Source: an uncultured Poribacteria bacterium
GTDB taxonomy: Bacteria > Poribacteria > WGA-4E > WGA-3G
Length of the DNA stretch: 64,000 nucleotides
NCBI GenBank assembly: GCA_958296135.2
Contig: CATQHZ020000001.1
Location: 3,776,001 to 3,840,000 of the forward strand
Reading direction: 5' to 3'
Of the stretch, positions 39,460 through 46,509 are shown piece after piece. The notes under the pieces are model-generated. The model worked only from the letters and a program-made list of their open reading frames with translations, searched no databases and was not told the DNA's origin. Both the position numbers and the translations under genes were made by a program. The first letter of the stretch is position 1; every line of letters starts with the position of its first letter.

Positions 39460-40861
39460 TTTATTTGCAGTCGCCGTGGATTTGTGGTAGAATGTAGTTA
39501 CCGTTGGGGGCGAGACGGCTAGGTGCGGCTGCCCGCCGTGTCTCTCGCCCCACCTATCTAGCAGAAGGTGACAACCAACGGGAACGGTGACGCTATGGCA
39601 CTACGAGCCCAGAAGATAGCACTCAATCCAACTGAGGAACAGGTCGAGGCATTTAACCTGCATGTGCAATTCGCACGCGCCGCCTATAATGCCGCGCATT
39701 CTGATTGGAACGCCGACCGCCGTAACTCCCTCTATGATTTGAAGAAAATCTTCAACTCACGGAAGCGCGAGGTGTTCCCCGAATTCGCCGCGTGTTCTCA
39801 AAACGCAGGCAAGACTGCTATCCACGCTTTCGGTGATGCTATCGCCAGATACAAATCGGGACAGAATGGTGCGCCCAAACGGAAGACGCATAAGTCTCGC
39901 CCCGCGTTCCAGATTGATAATGGTGTGGATAGCGTCAAAATAACGGAGGACGGCAAACACGTCGTCCTCCCGATAATTGGACAGGTTAGGTTGCATGAAA
40001 CCCCTCGATGGACAGGTGAAGTTCGCCGTGCTTTCGTCAAACGCATCGCACATCGTTGGTATCTCAGCATCCTCGTCGACGTTAACGAACCGGAACCGCC
40101 TGATAGTTCCAACCTGCCCGCCGCAGGTTGTGATGTCGGCATCTCTGCCCTCGCCACGATGGACGATGGCACTGTCTATGAAAATCCGCGTGCCTTGCGC
40201 GTCAATGAACGCAAACTACGCCGTGCAAATAAGGCACTCGCCCGCAAGACGTTCATGAGCCGCAACTGGTGGAAGGCGAAGGAACGCCTCGCCCGCCTGC
40301 ATGCCCGTATCGCCAATGTGCGAACCGATGCCCATCATCAGGCGACACATCGCATCCTGCAAGGCATCTCGGCACTTGGCATCGAGAGCCTCACCGTCAA
40401 AGGTTTGATGAAAAATCGCAAGCTGAGCAAGGCACTCGCCGATGCAAGTCTTGGCGGCTTCCTCGTCAAACTCAAATATAAGGCGGTGTGGCGTGGCATC
40501 CGCATTGTGTCAGCAGATAAGTTCTGGCCGTCAACACAGCGATGCAGTTCTTGTGGATACGTCAAACGTGGCGAATTCAAACTGACGCTCAAGGACAGAG
40601 AATATCACTGCGGCATCTGCGGATGGGTAGAGGACAGAGACGTTAACGCCGCTATAAACCTTCGACAGCTCGCCTCAAGCACTGAGGAGAGTCAAAACGC
40701 CTGTGGAGATGCTGTAACACCTACTTTGGTAGGCTGGCATCAGAACCCGCGTGTGCGCGGAAGAAGCAGGAAACCGCTGACCGAACAGAGACTCGTAGAC
40801 TTTGCACAGGTTTCCAGATAAGTCTACATTTGACGAGATGCTCATAGGTTATGTAGTGCGG
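39460..40861 (+). mobile_element. non-autonomous tnpB-only element, IS607-like; left end uncertain
   Basis: No tnpA; GC hairpin at 39507-39551; 3' region ends ...GTAGTGCGG, resembling IS607-type right ends. Confidence 0.5.
39595..40821 (+). CDS. tnpB: RNA-guided endonuclease TnpB (IS200/IS605/IS607 superfamily)
   Basis: RuvC-I GCDVG, RuvC-II IESL, CSSCG/CGICG Zn finger, RuvC-III DRDVNAAINL; TTGCAG-N17-TAGAAT promoter at 39465-39493. Confidence 0.93.
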   Translation: MALRAQKIALNPTEEQVEAFNLHVQFARAAYNAAHSDWNADRRNSLYDLKKIFNSRKREVFPEFAACSQNAGKTAIHAFGDAIARYKSGQNGAPKRKTHKSRPAFQIDNGVDSVKITEDGKHVVLPIIGQVRLHETPRWTGEVRRAFVKRIAHRWYLSILVDVNEPEPPDSSNLPAAGCDVGISALATMDDGTVYENPRALRVNERKLRRANKALARKTFMSRNWWKAKERLARLHARIANVRTDAHHQATHRILQGISALGIESLTVKGLMKNRKLSKALADASLGGFLVKLKYKAVWRGIRIVSADKFWPSTQRCSSCGYVKRGEFKLTLKDREYHCGICGWVEDRDVNAAINLRQLASSTEESQNACGDAVTPTLVGWHQNPRVRGRSRKPLTEQRLVDFAQVSR

Positions 40862-41174: not shown

Positions 41175-41936
41175 ATGGCAGCTCAAACATCCAAAATCGA
41201 GTGGACAGAATCAACTTGGAACCCCGTCCGCGGATGCACGCGGGTCTCAGAAGGGTGCCGGTTCTGTTATGCTGAACGGATCGCGTCGCGATTTTCTGAC
41301 GAAGGCATGGCATACGAGGGCCTCGCCGAAAACACCAAAGCCGGTCCGCGCTGGACACAGGAAGTCAGGATTGTCCGAGAAGCGTTCAAGGCACCCCTGA
41401 AATGGAGAAAACCGCGCCGAATTTTCGTCAATTCCATGAGCGACATCTTCCATGAAAAGATCGAATTATCGACGATTCAGGAGCTCTTCGATGTCATGAA
41501 GAAAGCGGATTGGCACCAATTCCAGCTCTTGACGAAGCGAGCAGAACGGCTATTGGCATGCAACGCCGCCTTGCCGTGGCCGCCGAACGTCTGGATGGGA
41601 GTGAGCGTGGAAGATGAGCAAGTTATGCATCGGATAGATGCGCTGCGGCAAACCGATGCGCGCATCAAATTCCTCTCACTTGAACCGCTCCTCGGTCCGC
41701 TTCCGAATTTAGACTTAAGCGGGATAGACTGGGTTATCGTCGGCGGAGAATCCGGTCCGGGTGCACGTCCGATGGATAAAGCATGGGTGATTGCCATCCG
41801 AGAGCGGTGTGCGGAGGCGGGTGTGCCGTTTTTCTTTAAGCAGTGGGGTGGCGTGCGTAAATCGAAAACGGGGCGCGAGTTGGATGGAAAATTTTATGAC
41901 GAGATGCCGCACACGCCGCTATTGCAAATGAGATAG
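41175..41936 (+). CDS. DUF5131 / phage Gp37-Gp68 family protein
   Basis: SKIEWT..TWNP..GC..VS.GC..CYA, FVNSMSD.FH, LTKR, SLEPLLG, GGESG, FFKQWGG. Confidence 0.92.
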   Translation: MAAQTSKIEWTESTWNPVRGCTRVSEGCRFCYAERIASRFSDEGMAYEGLAENTKAGPRWTQEVRIVREAFKAPLKWRKPRRIFVNSMSDIFHEKIELSTIQELFDVMKKADWHQFQLLTKRAERLLACNAALPWPPNVWMGVSVEDEQVMHRIDALRQTDARIKFLSLEPLLGPLPNLDLSGIDWVIVGGESGPGARPMDKAWVIAIRERCAEAGVPFFFKQWGGVRKSKTGRELDGKFYDEMPHTPLLQMR

Positions 41937-41956: not shown

Positions 41957-43579
41957 TCATGGAATCGCCCGTATCTGGCGGATTTCGGAAACCTCAGACA
42001 CCGGCGGCGAGATCGGTTCATGGAATGCCATCTTCGCGGCAATTCTCCCGTAACTGTAACCATCACGGCGGGCTAACAATCGTAAATCCGCAGTGGTGCC
42101 GCTTTTTCGCGAATCTTTCACATCCGGTGCGAAATATTTGACACGGCATCTACGCGGCTTCCCTTTGGGCGTTTTATCAAAGCAGTTAATAACCCCGCGC
42201 CATTTCGTCCCATCTTGCGTTGTGAGCTCAACATGGTCCAACCGCCGGAACCCGTTGCTTTCCGCCCGTTTTTCATTCGGGAGGAAGAAGCCCGGGGCCT
42301 TCATCTTGAAAGTCTTGCGCAGATTATCACGCCGTCCATATCCCTCCGCTTGAATCACGTCAACTTGGAGAGAACTTGGTTGTTTCGGGAGACACGCAAC
42401 CGCGGCCGCGTCGTAGTAATGCGTCTTTGGCAAGCCTGCGAGGTTTCGGTTATGTGCTGTTTTTCCGCCAGTCCCGCTGAGAACGGGCAACTTCATCGCC
42501 TTGAGTATTTCAAAGAGTTTCCAGCGAATCGTGTTCACTGCAGCAGCATCAGAAAGCCCTTTCTTTGACTTGCTCACAGCGGATTTGACCTTTTTCGCAA
42601 ACTTTTCACCGCATTTCGCTTCCAACGCGTCACCGACAAGATTGCCCTTTTTCGCGTTGCACGGACGACACGCCATCGTGAGATTGTCGGGGCGACTGGA
42701 ACCGCCTTTCGCTTTAGGGAGGATGTGTTCAACCTCAAGGCGAACATTTTTGTCCCCACAATAGGCGCACTTTCGTCCGGTGAGTTCCAAGAGGTATTCG
42801 CGAATTTCGCGCCCGTGAAGTGTGCCTTGTTGATATTGAATCCCATGAATGTTGGGCTTGTCCATCAACTGCATATCAAACTTCACCGTTTCAATCGCGA
42901 GCCGTGTTATCGGAGAGACTTTGCGGTATCGCCGCGTCCACGTCTCTATATTGAAAACACGGGACATGAGGCTCGGTGCAACCCATCCGTTATCCGCGCG
43001 CTTTTGATGAGCAACACGGACGCGCTTCCAACGCTTCTTTTGGCGTTGATTCGTTTTCGTTTTCGGCAGACGTTCCCACCGATACCGCGGATCTCGCAAT
43101 TGTGCCCACGAGACGCGATTGAAGTGATTCTGCGTTTGACTCGTATCCGTGCCTTCTGGGGCCTTGGCGCGTTGATACGTCCATCCCTCGTCAGTCAGCA
43201 CCGGCACTTTTCGTCCGCGGTTTGCCCAACGCGCAGGACGATACCGTAGATTCCGAGTGCGGCGACCGCGGCGGAATCCAGACCGGTTAGTCAACGCTTT
43301 CTTTATCTGCCTTCCACGATGGTGGAGTTCCGCGGCATAGATGATATCGCCAGTCTCCGATGTGATGGCGATGCCCGATGTTTTTGAACCCGGATCCCAA
43401 CTCAGGGTGTAGTTCCCGGTAACAATCTCATCGGCAGGCACCGCTTTTTTCAGGATGATTGTAAACGGATGTCGGTTCCAAACAGCCGCCTCACCACGCT
43501 TCAATAAACGTCGCGCTATTGCCGGGTGGCACGGTTCCAATACGTTCTTGTTTCTATCAATCACAAAAACTTTTGACAT
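41957..43579 (-). CDS. iscB: RNA-guided endonuclease IscB (540 aa), CRISPR-associated
   Basis: PLMP-like N-terminus (VLEPCHPAIARRLL...PFTIIL), RuvC-I WDPGSK, Arg-rich bridge helix RRGRRTRNLRYR, RuvC-II IETVKFD, HNH CAYC..EHILP..GG...NL..AC..CN..KG, RuvC-III THYYDA; RBS GGAGAGG. Confidence 0.95.
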   Translation of the reverse strand: MSKVFVIDRNKNVLEPCHPAIARRLLKRGEAAVWNRHPFTIILKKAVPADEIVTGNYTLSWDPGSKTSGIAITSETGDIIYAAELHHRGRQIKKALTNRSGFRRGRRTRNLRYRPARWANRGRKVPVLTDEGWTYQRAKAPEGTDTSQTQNHFNRVSWAQLRDPRYRWERLPKTKTNQRQKKRWKRVRVAHQKRADNGWVAPSLMSRVFNIETWTRRYRKVSPITRLAIETVKFDMQLMDKPNIHGIQYQQGTLHGREIREYLLELTGRKCAYCGDKNVRLEVEHILPKAKGGSSRPDNLTMACRPCNAKKGNLVGDALEAKCGEKFAKKVKSAVSKSKKGLSDAAAVNTIRWKLFEILKAMKLPVLSGTGGKTAHNRNLAGLPKTHYYDAAAVACLPKQPSSLQVDVIQAEGYGRRDNLRKTFKMKAPGFFLPNEKRAESNGFRRLDHVELTTQDGTKWRGVINCFDKTPKGKPRRCRVKYFAPDVKDSRKSGTTADLRLLARRDGYSYGRIAAKMAFHEPISPPVSEVSEIRQIRAIP

Positions 43580-43594
43580 AATGTCCTCTCCTGC

Positions 43595-43857
43595 TACTGC
43601 AGAAGGTAATGTGAGCCTCGCCAATGTTATCTCTGCTTAATTCAGGGTTGACTGCCTCATCTTGACAAGAGACTGTTTACAGAGCCCCCACAGTGCTCCC
43701 GACTGGCTCCATCGGCGATCCGACGTATCTGGAGGTGTGATAACAGAGATAACGTAGTTAGTGAAAACTTAAGCTAGATACCGATTCAATTAGGCAACAA
43801 GGATTCCACCCCTTGTTCCCCGCTCCGCAAGCGGAGCTAACATGGTTTCATTGCAAC
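43595..43857 (-). ncRNA. omega RNA (HEARO-like) scaffold with repeat-complementary 5' region
   Basis: On the minus strand, in order: TAGCTTAAG, CTACGTT, ACACC, GCCAGTC, TAAACAG, GGCAGT, AACATTGGCGAGG, ATTACC; long-range stem GTTATCTCTG/CAGAGATAAC; directly upstream of iscB; exact ends inferred. Confidence 0.85.
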
Positions 43858-43858
43858 T

Positions 43859-43950
43859 TTGCTGTCAACCTCCCGCAACATTTGCGTTATTGGAGGTAGA
43901 CAGCAAGTCCTTACGCCGCAAGCACGGATGCACACGGCGTGATGCCGAGC
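43859..43950 (+). promoter_or_regulatory. putative CRISPR leader with inverted repeat
   Basis: TTGCTGTCAACCTCC-N16-GGAGGTAGACAGCAA ending 44 bp before the first perfect repeat; degenerate repeats are at the far end. Confidence 0.6.
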
Positions 43951-45260
43951 GTTGCAACTTTACCATGCTCAAGCGGTAACTGAAGGATTTAAGCCGACTC
44001 CGCGCAGCCGGAAACGCGTTGCAACTTTACCATGCTCAAGCGGTAACGGTTCCATCTCGATGCGAGTTTGCGTCGTGCGGCACTGGTTGCAACTTTACCA
44101 TGCTCAAGCGGTAACGCTGCGCTTTGCGGTTTAGCTCTCCCCACGCGATTGTTGCAACTTTACCATGCTCAAGCGGTAACTCGTAAGGATAGGCGAGTGC
44201 CTTGTCAATGAGGCGTTCGTTGCAACTTTACCATGCTCAAGCGGTAACTTTACCTAAACTATAATGCGTAAAATTGACAATCTCTAGTTGCAACTTTACC
44301 ATGCTCAAGCGGTAACGCGTGTCGTAAGATTCTGCCGCCGCGTAGATGGAATGCGTTGCAACTTTACCATGCTCAAGCGGTAACCTTCATCGTAAGCCTC
44401 TTCATCGTAGGTGAAGAATTGTTGCAACTTTACCATGCTCAAGCGGTAACCGCTTGATGAACCTGCTGTTGATGAACCCCAGCAGGGCAGGGCGGCGTTG
44501 CAACTTTACCATGCTCAAGCGGTAACCAGCATCTTGAAAAACAAGGTGCGGGTGCTGCGAGCGTTGCAACTTTACCATGCTCAAGCGGTAACAGGTTTTT
44601 ACGTCTACTTGCGCCGGCCCGCCAGCCGGCGCGGTTGCAACTTTACCATGCTCAAGCGGTAACTGAACACGAAGGGCGGGGTGACGCGCATGGGCGTGAG
44701 TTGCAACTTTACCATGCTCAAGCGGTAACCTCTGTATAACCTATGTTAATCCCGTCAAATCTAGTTGCAACTTTACCATGCTCAAGCGGTAACCTAAAAT
44801 ATCCATTACATCTTTAGGCATTGCCAGCCTCGTTGCAACTTTACCATGCTCAAGCGGTAACTTAAGGTCTTCGTGAAGCCCTCCCTGCCCGTCCAGGTTG
44901 CAACTTTACCATGCTCAAGCGGTAACCATTGCAGACGAGCATTGATGTGAAGACCGGACGACTGTTGCAACTTTACCATGCTCAAGCGGTAACGTCATAG
45001 ATGGCTTCTAGCATAGGCGTGAGACGCGGTGTTGCAACTTTACCATGCTCAAGCGGTAACGCGCAGCGTCAGTCTCGGTAGCCGGTGCGGGTGCCGGTGT
45101 TGCAACTTTACCATGCTCAAGCGGTAACTTTTGGGGTTGATTTGCGCTCATGGCGTTGCCGACAGGTTGCAACTTTACCATGCACAAGCGGTAACAAATA
45201 CTGACAGCGATACGACTTCCCGCCAGAACCGTTTCAACTTTACCATGCTCAGGTGGTAAC
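43951..45260. CRISPR. CRISPR array: 20 repeats (30 bp, GTTGCAACTTTACCATGCTCAAGCGGTAAC) and 19 spacers (34-46 bp)
   Basis: 18 identical repeats; repeat 19 (45166) has 1 change and repeat 20 (45231) has 3; spacers are unique. Confidence 0.99.
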
Positions 45261-45275
45261 CGGCAACTATGTTAA

Positions 45276-45304
45276 AGTATACCACGCTTTCTTCTGAATT
45301 GCAA
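45276..45304 (-). promoter_or_regulatory. sigma70 promoter firing into the array toward iscB
   Basis: Minus strand TTGCAA-N17-TATACT with extended TG; same architecture as the promoters at 8007 and upstream of tRNA-Ala. Confidence 0.75.
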
Positions 45305-45378: not shown

Positions 45379-46302
45379 TCATACAAGTTTGTTCAAATCG
45401 ACAGGTAACCCGACAGATTTCATTTCCTGAGCCAGTCTCAGTTTCCATCCATCCTCGCTCTTCATTGGAATATAAAGGAGTCCATCAAGATCGGAGGGGT
45501 TTTCTAGTTCCCCTTTAACGAGCAAACAGACTCTTCCGCGTTCCAACTTTCCTTGAAAATAGCCGAGTTCTAGGATGACGTTTTGACGAGCCCGAAGTTT
45601 GAGATCCTCATCTGCTTCATTCCTTAGGGCACCAACATCATCGGGAGTCAGCAAAGCAATAGCAAACCTAACGTTGTTTGCCAATTGCTCAAGCTTCTCA
45701 ATAATCGTTAGACCGGAGTTGGGTTGGTTTTCAAGGATGATTTCCTTGAATCCTAAATCCCTGAGGAACAAAACGACAGCGTTTTTCGCCGCATCGTCCC
45801 GTCCATGCACGATAAACACTGAAGTGTCCGCAGGAGTGTCTGAAGGTAGATTACGCAGATTTATCTTTCCCACCGTTTCAGATCTGGCTTCCACCGTAGA
45901 ACCTTCTTGTGCTATCTGTAACCGTGTTAACTGTTCCGGATCCAAAACCGATATTTCGCCATCATCAACAGAATCCACCTCTTTTGCCTTCGGGTGATAG
46001 GAGAGGTAGGAACGTTCCCCTTTTCTTTCTTCGATGATAGCGAGCCATATACCGCCGCAACTCCCTTCGCAGCACAGCGTTTTTTGTCTGTCGCAGAGTT
46101 TGATTTCAAGTTGATGCGAAGCCCCCCAGGGACAAGCAATGTCAATAAATTCGTGAGGTTGTGCCGGCGTGGAAAGAAGGACTTTCCATGCACCACCTCG
46201 TTGCAAGATACCATGCACCTTCTTACCTGTCGTATCTACGATAAGAAGGTCTTTCCCATCAAATGCCCCTGAAGGAAGCATTCCATTATAAGGTCTATAC
46301 AT
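45379..46302 (-). CDS. TIR-like nucleotide-binding domain protein (CAP12/Pycsar-type TIR at the C-terminus)
   Basis: VFIVHGRD, TIIEKLE, LLTPDD, RARQNVILELGYF, PSDLDG; RBS AAGGAG. Confidence 0.88.
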   Translation of the reverse strand: MYRPYNGMLPSGAFDGKDLLIVDTTGKKVHGILQRGGAWKVLLSTPAQPHEFIDIACPWGASHQLEIKLCDRQKTLCCEGSCGGIWLAIIEERKGERSYLSYHPKAKEVDSVDDGEISVLDPEQLTRLQIAQEGSTVEARSETVGKINLRNLPSDTPADTSVFIVHGRDDAAKNAVVLFLRDLGFKEIILENQPNSGLTIIEKLEQLANNVRFAIALLTPDDVGALRNEADEDLKLRARQNVILELGYFQGKLERGRVCLLVKGELENPSDLDGLLYIPMKSEDGWKLRLAQEMKSVGLPVDLNKLV

Positions 46303-46509
46303 TATTTCTCCTTCCACCCGCAGTTCCAGAAAACCCGCACCAGCATCGTTACATTTCAAGGGAAACCGTTAAGTTCTCTCATACCATCGGTGCATGAGCG
46401 CAGCGTTACCATAACCCGACACCGCAATGGCGATGCGAAGCCGGTAACTGAACGTACCTGCATCCTTTTCTTTTAATTATACACGAAATGGTTAGAAATG
46501 TCAATTTTT

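What the first reader, a model, noticed from the sequence alone, without database searches (positions are those of the whole stretch)
43777..43980. Omega RNA appears split: the CRISPR repeat supplies the missing 5' strand (tracrRNA-like two-part anti-repeat)
The minus-strand repeat is GTTACCGCTTGAGCATGGTAAAGTTGCAAC. Its nt 1-12 can pair with the transcript at 43788-43777 (TGAATCGGTATC, 9/12). This segment lies just before TAGCTTAAG...CTACGTT, where canonical omega RNAs have the GTTGAC strand that pairs with their own 5' end. Repeat nt 12-30 can pair with 43857-43839 (GTTGCAATGAAACCATGTT; 14/19 plus 2 G-U, with a small internal loop). Two hairpins (GCTCCGC/GCGGAGC and AACAAGG/CCTTGTT) loop out between the segments. 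The whole repeat is therefore covered, so any spacer-repeat unit could load in trans. This would parallel the Cas9 crRNA:tracrRNA design and argues for co-adaptation rather than chance adjacency.
Basis: partly seen in the sequence, partly recalled or inferred. Interest (0 to 1): 0.87.

Follow-up and report, generated by a model that had tools for sequence, protein, structure and literature searches.

The report
CRISPR repeat completes IscB guide RNA
A small Cas9-like nuclease (IscB) sits next to a CRISPR array whose repeat base-pairs with the nuclease's guide-RNA scaffold in place of the scaffold's own missing 5' strand; this is a natural intermediate between transposon guide RNAs and the Cas9 crRNA:tracrRNA pair, and the kind has already been described.

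Summary
On the minus strand a 20-repeat CRISPR array (45260-43951) is followed by a 93-nt linker, a HEARO/omega RNA (43841-43606) and a single-copy iscB gene (43579-41957). Cofolding gives this structure unprompted (-16.3 kcal/mol against -5.6 +/- 2.6 for 300 shuffles, none as low).

The decisive evidence is covariation. In 16 array-bearing IscB loci with about 7 unrelated repeat families, the repeat's 5' end is complementary to the segment just before the conserved omega-RNA anchor. Stand-alone omega RNAs of the same phylum carry that 5' strand in cis.

Trans loading of every spacer is not shown. The terminal repeat is joined in cis, and no promoter-like or terminator-like site was predicted between array and omega RNA. 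No RNase III was found in 21 related genomes, and no cas1 is adjacent.

CRISPR-associated IscBs with a repeat/anti-repeat ncRNA are already published (Altae-Tran 2021, known here only through citing papers; DelIscB 2025), so this is a new member of a known kind. It belongs to a sponge-symbiont clade that I did not find in the searchable literature.

The parts
45276..45304 (-). Promoter-like site (TTGCAA, 17 nt, TATACT, with TG before the second hexamer), ending 15 nt upstream of the first (degenerate) repeat
   Evidence: consensus scan and sequence. This is a consensus match only, not shown to function.
43951..45260 (-). CRISPR array: 20 repeats of 30 nt and 19 unique spacers of 34-46 nt (most common repeat period 68 nt, i.e. 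spacers of about 38 nt). The two repeats furthest from iscB are degenerate.
   Evidence: No spacer matches the organism's own genome outside the array beyond 14-21 nt chance hits, and none matches the phage collection.
43951..43980 (-). Terminal repeat, joined in cis to the omega RNA through the linker
43858..43950 (-). 93-nt linker containing a short hairpin (about 43940-43913) and a long hairpin (about 43906-43859; ..UUGCUGUCUACCUCC...GGAGGUUGACAGCAA..). The GGTTGAC(A/G)(G/A)CAAA arm is conserved in relatives.
   Evidence: Fold; conservation and compensatory changes by eye. Function unknown; it may be the array's leader or a processing element (inference).
43839..43857 (-). Anti-repeat part A (GUUGCAAUGAAACCAUGUU), which pairs with repeat nt 12-30
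   Evidence: hand count on the sequence.
43792..43837 (-). Two hairpins (43837-43822 GCUCCG/CGGAGC; 43821-43792 with AACAAGG/CCUUGUU) looped out between the two anti-repeat parts. They correspond to the two small hairpins enclosed by P1 in the HEARO model.
   Evidence: They are absent in L002, L244 and L264-L268, where the anti-repeat is contiguous.
43777..43788 (-). Anti-repeat part B, the 3' strand of the omega RNA's first (guide-adaptor) stem. It pairs with repeat nt 1-12 and lies immediately 5' of the conserved UAGCUUAAG...CUACGUU.
43606..43841 (-). Omega RNA / HEARO RNA body (Rfam RF02033, 83.4 bits, E 2.3e-16); the only copy in the genome
   Evidence: RNA contigs from sponge metatranscriptomes cover 43605-43786 at about 90-95% likeness, so they come from relatives.
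41957..43579 (-). iscB gene, 540 aa (RRXRR/PLMP-RuvC N-terminal region, HNH); single copy in the genome

Best explanation
This is a CRISPR-associated IscB system. The array, the omega RNA and iscB lie head to tail on the minus strand and are probably transcribed in that direction from a promoter-like site upstream of the array. The omega RNA scaffold has lost the 5' (ascending) strand of its guide-adaptor stem. The first 7-12 nt of each CRISPR repeat provide that strand, which places the 3' end of the preceding spacer where a canonical omega RNA carries its guide. The rest of the repeat (nt 12-30) pairs with a second anti-repeat segment at the 5' end of the scaffold and closes the junction like a Cas9 repeat:anti-repeat duplex. 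The terminal spacer-repeat can do this in cis. Upstream units would do it in trans after the precursor is cut, so the omega RNA acts as a tracrRNA. IscB then uses the repeat-proximal part of the spacer to cut matching DNA. Shown here: the pairing, its covariation, and the absence of a cis 5' strand. Inferred: transcription direction, processing, trans loading, DNA targeting, and spacer acquisition by Cas1-Cas2 encoded elsewhere in the genome.
For: - Pairing: the cofold MFE reproduces the two-part model. No shuffle of 300 is as low.
- Fixed-register test: repeat nt 1-8 against the 8 nt before the conserved anchor in 6 loci gives 41 of 48 pairs for cognate partners, the best of all 720 permutations.
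- Covariation on a MAFFT alignment of 11 natural sequences, not fitted to the structure: the 12-pair stem has 83.3% of cells paired against 72.7 +/- 1.8 in shuffles (0 of 500). The covariation score is 0.382 against 0.167 (0 of 500). Five pairs change on both sides, and slid registers reach at most 53.3%.
- 13x13 cofold matrix: cognate mean -20.8 against non-cognate -9.2 kcal/mol, and 0 of 20000 permutations reach the cognate sum.
- Cis strand: the stand-alone omega RNAs of the same phylum (L261, L269, L270) carry the 5' strand in cis. The array-linked ones do not.
- Phylogeny: the window's IscB falls in a clade with 99/96 support. Of its 16 rows, 12 have arrays of at least 3 repeats, 3 have 1-2 repeats and 1 has none.
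- Spacer turnover: six related loci share no spacer in any of 15 pairwise comparisons, and four of them are close relatives whose array flanks are 83-90% identical.
- Array geometry: spacer and repeat sizes (30 nt, most common spacer 38 nt) equal those of a Cas1-linked array in the same genome.
- Single copy: the genome has one iscB and one omega RNA.
- RNA: an RNA-library contig from a relative joins an omega-RNA body to a repeat-like segment.
- Literature: in DelIscB a repeat/anti-repeat hairpin could be shortened to a tetraloop with activity retained (PMC12660989, passages).
Against: - There is no direct RNA evidence for this organism. The RNA contigs laid are 90-95% alike, so they come from relatives, and contigs cannot show RNA ends. 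DNA carried into RNA libraries cannot be excluded.
- No promoter-like site was predicted in the linker for a separate tracr transcript, and no terminator-like site after the array.
- There is only one omega RNA gene for 19 spacers.
- On the window alone, with the palindrome removed, the pairing is only modestly unusual (13 of 300 shuffles reach it).
- Within the family of related repeats, non-cognate pairs can be as good or better. Cognate is best in its row for 8 of 13 and in its column for 6 of 13.
- No RNase III was found, so the Cas9-type maturation route is unavailable and the alternative is unknown.
- No cas1 is adjacent. One relative with an 8-repeat array (G150) has no detectable cas1.
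- No protospacer was found, so targeting and the TAM are unknown.
Confidence: 0.65

Rival explanations
1. Cis-only guide. Only the terminal spacer-repeat, covalently linked to the omega RNA through the 93-nt linker, is ever used, as one long omega RNA with an extended guide-adaptor hairpin. The upstream units are an archive, or become usable only when they reach the terminal position.
For: The cis fold forms all the helices. No promoter-like or terminator-like site was predicted between array and omega RNA. There is one omega RNA per array. Relatives exist with a single repeat (L253, L263) or two (L251), which can work only in or near cis. In L256 the last repeat is truncated and joined to the anti-repeat by a short loop. 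The characterised DelIscB ncRNA is described as a single ncRNA, and its processing into two parts is stated to be unknown (PMC12660989, passage). Degenerate repeats at the far end and one partly shared far-end spacer (seen by eye) suggest that new spacers enter next to the omega RNA, which would put the newest spacer in cis.
Against: In this window 18 of 20 repeats are kept identical over 1.3 kb. Arrays reach at least 27 repeats in L002. Keeping many perfect repeats without use is hard to explain, although acquisition by copying would also keep them identical.
Confidence: 0.25
2. Chance adjacency. The array is an orphan or belongs to another CRISPR-Cas system, and it sits next to an IscB transposon whose omega RNA happens to show some complementarity, helped by the palindrome GTTGCAAC.
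For: No cas genes flank the array. Two other Cas1-linked arrays exist in the genome. Without the palindrome the single-locus statistic is weak (13 of 300).
Against: The repeat is found nowhere else in the genome. The same arrangement recurs in 16 loci with different repeats that each match their own omega RNA. The array-bearing IscBs form a supported clade. iscB is single-copy, not a multi-copy transposon.
Confidence: 0.02
3. Relic repeat. The segment 43857-43839 is a decayed 21st repeat read in the same sense (AAAGTTGCAA matches repeat nt 20-29 directly), not an anti-repeat, and only the P1 pairing is functional.
For: There is a 10-nt direct match because of the palindrome (by eye).
Against: ACCAUGUU is complementary, not identical, to repeat nt 12-19. 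The spacing does not fit the 64-76 nt period. In L079, L080, L002, L244 and L256, which have non-palindromic or different repeats, the same position carries 11-17 nt of clear complement. The cofold uses it.
Confidence: 0.05

Closest known systems
CRISPR-associated IscB systems (Altae-Tran et al. 2021, Science; the DelIscB system, PMC12660989)
   Same: An IscB of roughly 450-550 aa sits downstream of a CRISPR array, with an ncRNA between them. The ncRNA contains a repeat and an anti-repeat and otherwise resembles an omega RNA. No adjacent adaptation genes were found in this window. In DelIscB the DR/anti-repeat hairpin can be shortened to make an sgRNA (passages). Reviews state that such associations arose several times independently (PMC10734277, passage), which matches L079, L080 and L098 lying outside the window's clade.
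   Different: I could not read the 2021 paper (not held) or any supplement, so I cannot say whether this clade or the interrupted two-part anti-repeat is already in its set of loci. This clade is confined to one phylum in the genomes searched; its closest public records are titled Poribacteria MAGs. It shows both contiguous and interrupted anti-repeats, a conserved linker hairpin, and hosts without a detectable RNase III.
Type II CRISPR-Cas9 crRNA:tracrRNA dual guide
   Same: The crRNA polarity is spacer then repeat, the repeat:anti-repeat duplex lies next to the guide, and the scaffold RNA is encoded beside the array and nuclease. The published evolutionary model says the ascending strand of the omega 5' stem was replaced by crRNA (PMC9581776, passage), and that the repeat:anti-repeat duplex corresponds to IscB's guide-adaptor hairpin (PMC9640706, passage).
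   Different: The effector keeps the IscB architecture (the RRXRR/PLMP N-terminal region matches Pfam PF14239, and there is no REC lobe) and a full-size scaffold of about 235 nt. cas1, cas2 and csn2/cas4 are not adjacent. RNase III was not found. Separate transcription of the scaffold is not shown.
Canonical OMEGA IscB-omega RNA (HEARO RNA, Rfam RF02033)
   Same: The body of the RNA matches the HEARO model from the P1 3' strand to the 3' end (model positions about 50-211 at high posterior). The protein domains are the same.
   Different: The 5' strand of P1 with its fixed flanking guide is missing in cis and is replaced by a repeated unit with variable spacers. The gene is single-copy and no TnpA was seen beside it.
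RNase III-independent crRNA biogenesis in type II-C systems (recalled, not read here)
   Same: A host or system in which Cas9-type guides mature without RNase III would be the nearest precedent, if the RNase III absence here is real.
   Different: The type II-C mechanism relies on promoters inside each repeat. The TGnT...GT motif in these repeats is not kept as a -10 box across relatives (by eye), so I do not favour it.

Membership tests
IscB (OMEGA effector) | N-terminal PLMP/RRXRR region with RuvC-I and an arginine-rich bridge segment | tested here: met
   Pfam PF14239 RRXRR, E 1.5e-55, residues 4-125. Homology to solved IscBs: 9k30 at E 4.3e-37, 7xht at E 9.6e-22.
IscB (OMEGA effector) | HNH nuclease domain inserted in the RuvC fold | tested here: met
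   PF14279 at E 2.9e-13 and PF01844 at E 1.9e-12, residues 271-320. Flanking regions align to IscB RuvC-II/III. The assignment of catalytic residues is recalled, not tested.
IscB (OMEGA effector) | Omega/HEARO RNA encoded immediately upstream of the ORF | tested here: met
   RF02033 at 83.4 bits (threshold 83), 43841-43606, ending 27 nt before the start codon.
IscB (OMEGA effector) | Self-contained omega RNA with its own 5' P1 strand and one fixed guide; element mobile or multi-copy with IS200/IS605 features | tested here: not met
   P1 is not formed in cis. There is one copy in the genome. No TnpA was seen among the neighbours scanned. A TnpB gene lies 1.1 kb downstream, but its link to this locus is unknown.
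CRISPR array | At least 3 near-identical direct repeats with unique spacers of similar length | tested here: met
   20 repeats and 19 unique spacers of 34-46 nt.
tracrRNA-type dual guide | Anti-repeat complementary to the repeat, maintained by selection | tested here: met
tracrRNA-type dual guide | Scaffold RNA made as a separate molecule that pairs with pre-crRNA in trans | not testable with these tools
   No promoter-like site was found in the linker. The RNA contigs come from relatives and cannot show RNA ends.
tracrRNA-type dual guide | Co-processing of the duplex by host RNase III | tested here: not met
   PF14622 and PF00636 gave no match in the organism's own genome (94.7% complete). 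TIGR02191 gave only a 20-bit match to the dsRBD part. PF14622 was found in 0 of 21 genomes of the order. This means not found, not proven absent.
Type II CRISPR-Cas | Cas9 effector with a REC lobe | tested here: not met
   The protein is 540 aa with IscB architecture. The only addition is an insertion of about 70 aa at the REC position.
Type II CRISPR-Cas | cas1-cas2 adaptation module in the locus | tested here: not met
   The nearest Cas1 hits are at C1:3646401 and C1:4395030, about 170 kb and 575 kb from the array. Neighbouring ORFs are a TIR-domain protein, aroA-like and DapA-like genes, DUF5131 and TnpB.

The most novel reading that the evidence does not exclude
This sponge-symbiont clade is an independent, working IscB-based adaptive immune system. 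The omega RNA has become a true trans-acting tracrRNA. Guides mature without RNase III. New spacers are inserted next to the omega RNA, with the conserved hairpin-bearing linker serving as leader, by Cas1-Cas2 borrowed from another CRISPR locus. The REC-position insertion in the protein has grown alongside the new repeat:anti-repeat helix. Together with its single-repeat and stand-alone relatives, it would be a living series replaying the OMEGA-to-Cas9 transition.
Probability: 0.3. Interest if true: 0.7.

Novelty: new member of a known kind. Interest (0 to 1): 0.5.

Why it matters
How the one-piece transposon guide RNA became the two-piece crRNA:tracrRNA of Cas9 has so far been inferred mainly from structures and a few metagenomic loci. 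This phylum holds several stages side by side:
- stand-alone omega RNAs with a cis 5' strand;
- single-repeat and two-repeat forms;
- arrays of 4 to at least 27 repeats;
- anti-repeats that are either contiguous or interrupted by the ancestral hairpins.

The hosts also have no detectable RNase III, which gives a concrete setting for asking how a dual guide matures without it. It also supplies compact nucleases of 520-620 aa with natural crRNA-like guides. The principle itself is already in print, so the value is as a well-populated natural test set, not as a new mechanism.

Tried and rejected
- Internal promoters in each repeat. TGGTAAAGT in the window's repeat resembles an extended -10 box. 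The central bases vary across relatives' repeats (by eye) and fall in the internal loop of the duplex. The scan found no repeat-borne promoter. I do not favour this idea.
- TTGACA in the conserved GGTTGACAGCAAA as the -35 box of a tracr promoter. No consistent -10 box lies 16-18 nt downstream in the window, L243, L245, L244, L266, L002, L079 or L080 (by eye). The motif is the 3' arm of a hairpin with compensatory changes. Rejected.
- Shared leader motif with the Cas1-linked arrays. Local alignment of the 93-nt linker to both flanks of both other arrays gave a best score of 28 against 18 +/- 3.2 for shuffles, in one of 8 comparisons. Inconclusive.
- Protospacers. The whole array was searched against 50,697 phage records with no match. 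The 19 spacers were searched against the organism's own genome, giving only 14-21 nt chance matches. I did not scan IMG/VR with spacers.
- Viral contigs. A scan with the protein alignment returned 80 loci, of which only L161 matched most of the protein. The rest matched little more than the HNH region. They were not examined for arrays.
- RNA evidence. The four RNA runs laid (X5, X6, X16, X18) covered only 43579-43797, plus a repeat piece in X6, at about 90-95% likeness. There was no cover over iscB or the rest of the stretch laid. The uncovered parts say nothing.
- Papers and tools. Altae-Tran 2021 is not held. A search for Poribacteria plus IscB found 0 papers.
- Rows left out. The tree omits L258 (truncated), L259 (no ORF found), and L246 and L260 (contig ends). 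L252 and L255 are the same loci as L002 and L001. L025 and L068 have repeats downstream of the gene and unrelated to it, so they were not counted.
Full report
What is there. Read on the minus strand, the region holds the following, in order:
- a promoter-like site at 45304-45276;
- a CRISPR array of 20 repeats of 30 nt and 19 unique spacers of 34-46 nt, from 45260 to 43951;
- a 93-nt linker;
- a match to Rfam HEARO RNA (RF02033), the omega RNA of IscB, at 43841-43606 (83.4 bits, threshold 83, E 2.3e-16);
- a 540-aa ORF at 43579-41957 with an RRXRR domain (E 1.5e-55) and HNH domains, whose closest solved relatives are IscB structures.

The genome (5.19 Mb, 4 contigs) has one iscB and one omega RNA. 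The repeat occurs only in this array.

Checking the observation. Repeat nt 1-12 against 43788-43777 gives 9 of 12 pairs. Repeat nt 12-30 against 43857-43839 gives 14 Watson-Crick pairs plus 2 G-U around a 3x3 loop (hand count).

RNAcofold of the repeat with the 110 nt ending at 43777 returns this two-part pairing with the two hairpins looped out. Folding the natural transcript 44000-43600 gives the same helices in cis.

The interaction energy is -16.3 kcal/mol.
- 300 dinucleotide shuffles of the repeat average -5.6 +/- 2.6, and none is as low (z = -4.15).
- 1 of 400 random window 30-mers is as low.
- The reverse-complement repeat reaches only -9.5.
- With the palindrome removed (nt 1-22 only) the value is -9.9, reached by 13 of 300 shuffles.

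On this locus alone the case is therefore good but not overwhelming.

Related loci decide it. The closest homologs in species-representative genomes (L001 and L002, 45-53% best-segment identity; record titles name Poribacteria MAGs) also have arrays upstream. Three of the 80 metagenome loci do as well (L079, L080, L098). A search of 176 genomes of the window's phylum found IscB in 21. Of the 25 loci examined, 12 have at least 3 repeats upstream. Three more have one or two repeats (L253, L263, L251). L261, L269 and L270 have ordinary omega RNAs.

The repeats fall into about 7 unrelated sequence families. In every array-bearing locus the first 6-17 nt of the repeat are complementary to the segment that ends right before the conserved anchor (C/U)AGNNUNAG...CUACGUU. 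The evidence is:
- Fixed-register pairing of nt 1-8 in 6 loci gives 41 of 48 pairs for cognate partners, the best of 720 permutations.
- On a MAFFT alignment of 11 natural sequences running from terminal repeat to start codon, the 12-pair stem has 83.3% of cells paired against 72.7 +/- 1.8 in shuffles (0 of 500). The covariation score is 0.382 against 0.167 (0 of 500). Five pairs change on both sides, and slid registers give 22-53%.
- The window has A4-U, C5-G and C6-G. Relatives have U-A or C-G at position 4; U-A, A-U, G-C or U-G at position 5; and A-U at position 6.
- A U.U mismatch at position 2 is kept in all 11 rows.
- A 13x13 cofold matrix gives a cognate mean of -20.8 against a non-cognate mean of -9.2 kcal/mol, and 0 of 20000 permutations reach the cognate sum.

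Against this, repeats of the window's own family are similar enough that non-cognate partners are sometimes better. Cognate is best in its row for 8 of 13 and in its column for 6 of 13.

The 5' strand really is missing in cis. The stand-alone omega RNAs L261 and L269 score 148 and 104 bits with an intact GUCAACUA/UAGUUGAC stem at high posterior. The array-linked window, L243 and L244 score 83.4, 66.9 and 56.0 bits, with the P1 pairs flagged non-standard or gapped.

In L002, L244 and L264-L268 the anti-repeat is one contiguous stretch of 26-32 nt. In the window, L243, L245 and L001 it is interrupted by the two hairpins that the HEARO model places inside P1. The two-part form is therefore one of two variants.

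Phylogeny. In a maximum-likelihood tree of 37 IscBs, the window sits in a clade with 99/96 support. All 16 rows come from its phylum: 12 with arrays, 3 with mini-arrays and 1 without. L079, L080 and L098 lie among stand-alone IscBs in the other main clade, so they are separate associations. This agrees with the published statement that CRISPR association arose several times in IscB (PMC10734277, passage).

Is the array alive? Six related loci share no spacer in any of 15 pairwise comparisons. Four of them are close relatives whose array flanks are 83-90% identical. Degenerate repeats sit at the end far from iscB in the window, L266 and L268, and one far-end spacer looks partly shared between L267 and L268 (by eye). 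This hints that new spacers enter next to the omega RNA, but the evidence is thin.

No cas1 is adjacent. The genome has Cas1 at two other loci. One of them has an array with the same geometry as the IscB array, with a 30-nt repeat and a most common spacer of 38 nt. Cas1 was found somewhere in 9 of 10 other array-bearing genomes, but not in G150.

Maturation. RNase III was not found in the genome with three profiles, nor in any of 21 genomes of the order with PF14622. That model rang in all 8 bacterial controls listed. If the absence is real, the Cas9-type route is unavailable.

No promoter-like or terminator-like site was predicted between array and omega RNA. The linker carries a long hairpin (about 43906-43859) whose GGTTGAC arm is conserved, with compensatory changes in L243 and L265 (by eye). 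Its role is unknown.

RNA evidence. Contigs from four RNA libraries, labelled sponge metagenome or metagenome, cover 43605-43786 at roughly 90-95% likeness, so they come from relatives. One 356-nt contig joins such an omega body, through 163 other letters, to a repeat-like segment. This is consistent with co-transcription of the last repeat and the scaffold in a relative. Contigs cannot show RNA ends, and DNA carry-over cannot be excluded.

Comparison with what is known.
- CRISPR-associated IscBs were reported in 2021. That paper is not held, and I know it only through citing papers and recall.
- The DelIscB paper says its ncRNA contains spacers, repeats and an anti-repeat. It says the DR/anti-repeat hairpin can be truncated to a GAAA loop, and that whether the ncRNA is processed into crRNA-like and tracrRNA-like parts is unknown (PMC12660989, passages).
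- The IsrB structure paper states that the ascending strand of the omega 5' stem was replaced by crRNA on the way to Cas9 (PMC9581776, passage).
- The IscB structure paper equates the repeat:anti-repeat duplex with the guide-adaptor hairpin (PMC9640706, passage).

I found no paper linking IscB to Poribacteria (0 papers).

Verdict. Trans loading of all spacers is plausible but untested. This is a new member of a known kind, made more useful by the surrounding natural series and by the apparent lack of RNase III.

Noticed in passing
window 45379-46359 (-): The ORF just upstream of the array encodes a 326-aa protein with a C-terminal CAP12/Pycsar-effector TIR domain (PF10137, E 4.3e-37). A defence-type gene next to the IscB array suggests a defence island.
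   Followed up: partly
window 39568-40821 (+) and 41175-41936 (+): A TnpB gene (OrfB_IS605 plus Cas12f1-like TNB domains, 417 aa), which is a second OMEGA-type nuclease, and a DUF5131 phage-type protein lie just downstream of iscB.
   Followed up: no
whole genome G000 and 20 relatives: No RNase III was detected. PF14622 and PF00636 found nothing in the organism's own genome, TIGR02191 gave only a 20-bit dsRBD match at C1:1007174-1007398, and PF14622 was found in 0 of 21 genomes of the order. This would be unusual for bacteria if real.
   Followed up: partly
IscB proteins of the clade (P0001 residues about 126-197): The distance from the N-terminus to the W-x-PS-L motif that opens RuvC-II is 123-136 aa in most stand-alone IscBs. 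In the array-linked clade it is 142-157, 198-202 (the window), 255 or 268 aa. This is a growing, Arg/Lys-rich insertion at the position where Cas9 carries its REC lobe.
   Followed up: partly
L253, L263 (G115, same contig) and L251: These clade members have only one or two repeats, followed by the same linker hairpin and anti-repeat. G115 carries several copies of this IscB. In the tree they are nested inside the array-bearing clade, so they may be reductions rather than ancestors.
   Followed up: partly
L254 (G047): This is the one clade member without any repeat. It has a consensus TTGACA-17-TATAAT promoter directly upstream of a short self-contained first stem.
   Followed up: no
L098 1-270: Upstream of its 5-repeat array there is what looks like the 3' part of another omega RNA (..GGCGAGGCCAACATAACC..) without an ORF.
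   Followed up: no
G150 (locus L268): A one-contig genome (95% complete) carries an 8-repeat IscB array with unique spacers but has no detectable Cas1.
   Followed up: no
genome contig C2 (143,886 bp): Its GC content is 36.8%, against 54.4% for the main contig. It may be a plasmid, a phage or a binning contaminant. No spacer matched it.
   Followed up: no
genome contig C1, many sites: Dozens of short clusters of GC-rich palindromic units (such as ..GCGAGGGACAGGCCCTCGC..CTACGG..) mimic small arrays in a k-mer scan. They look like REP-like interspersed elements.
   Followed up: no
L080 30-263: From recall only, its 36-nt repeat resembles repeats of type II-C Cas9 systems. This was not tested, because sequences from memory may not be used.
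   Followed up: no
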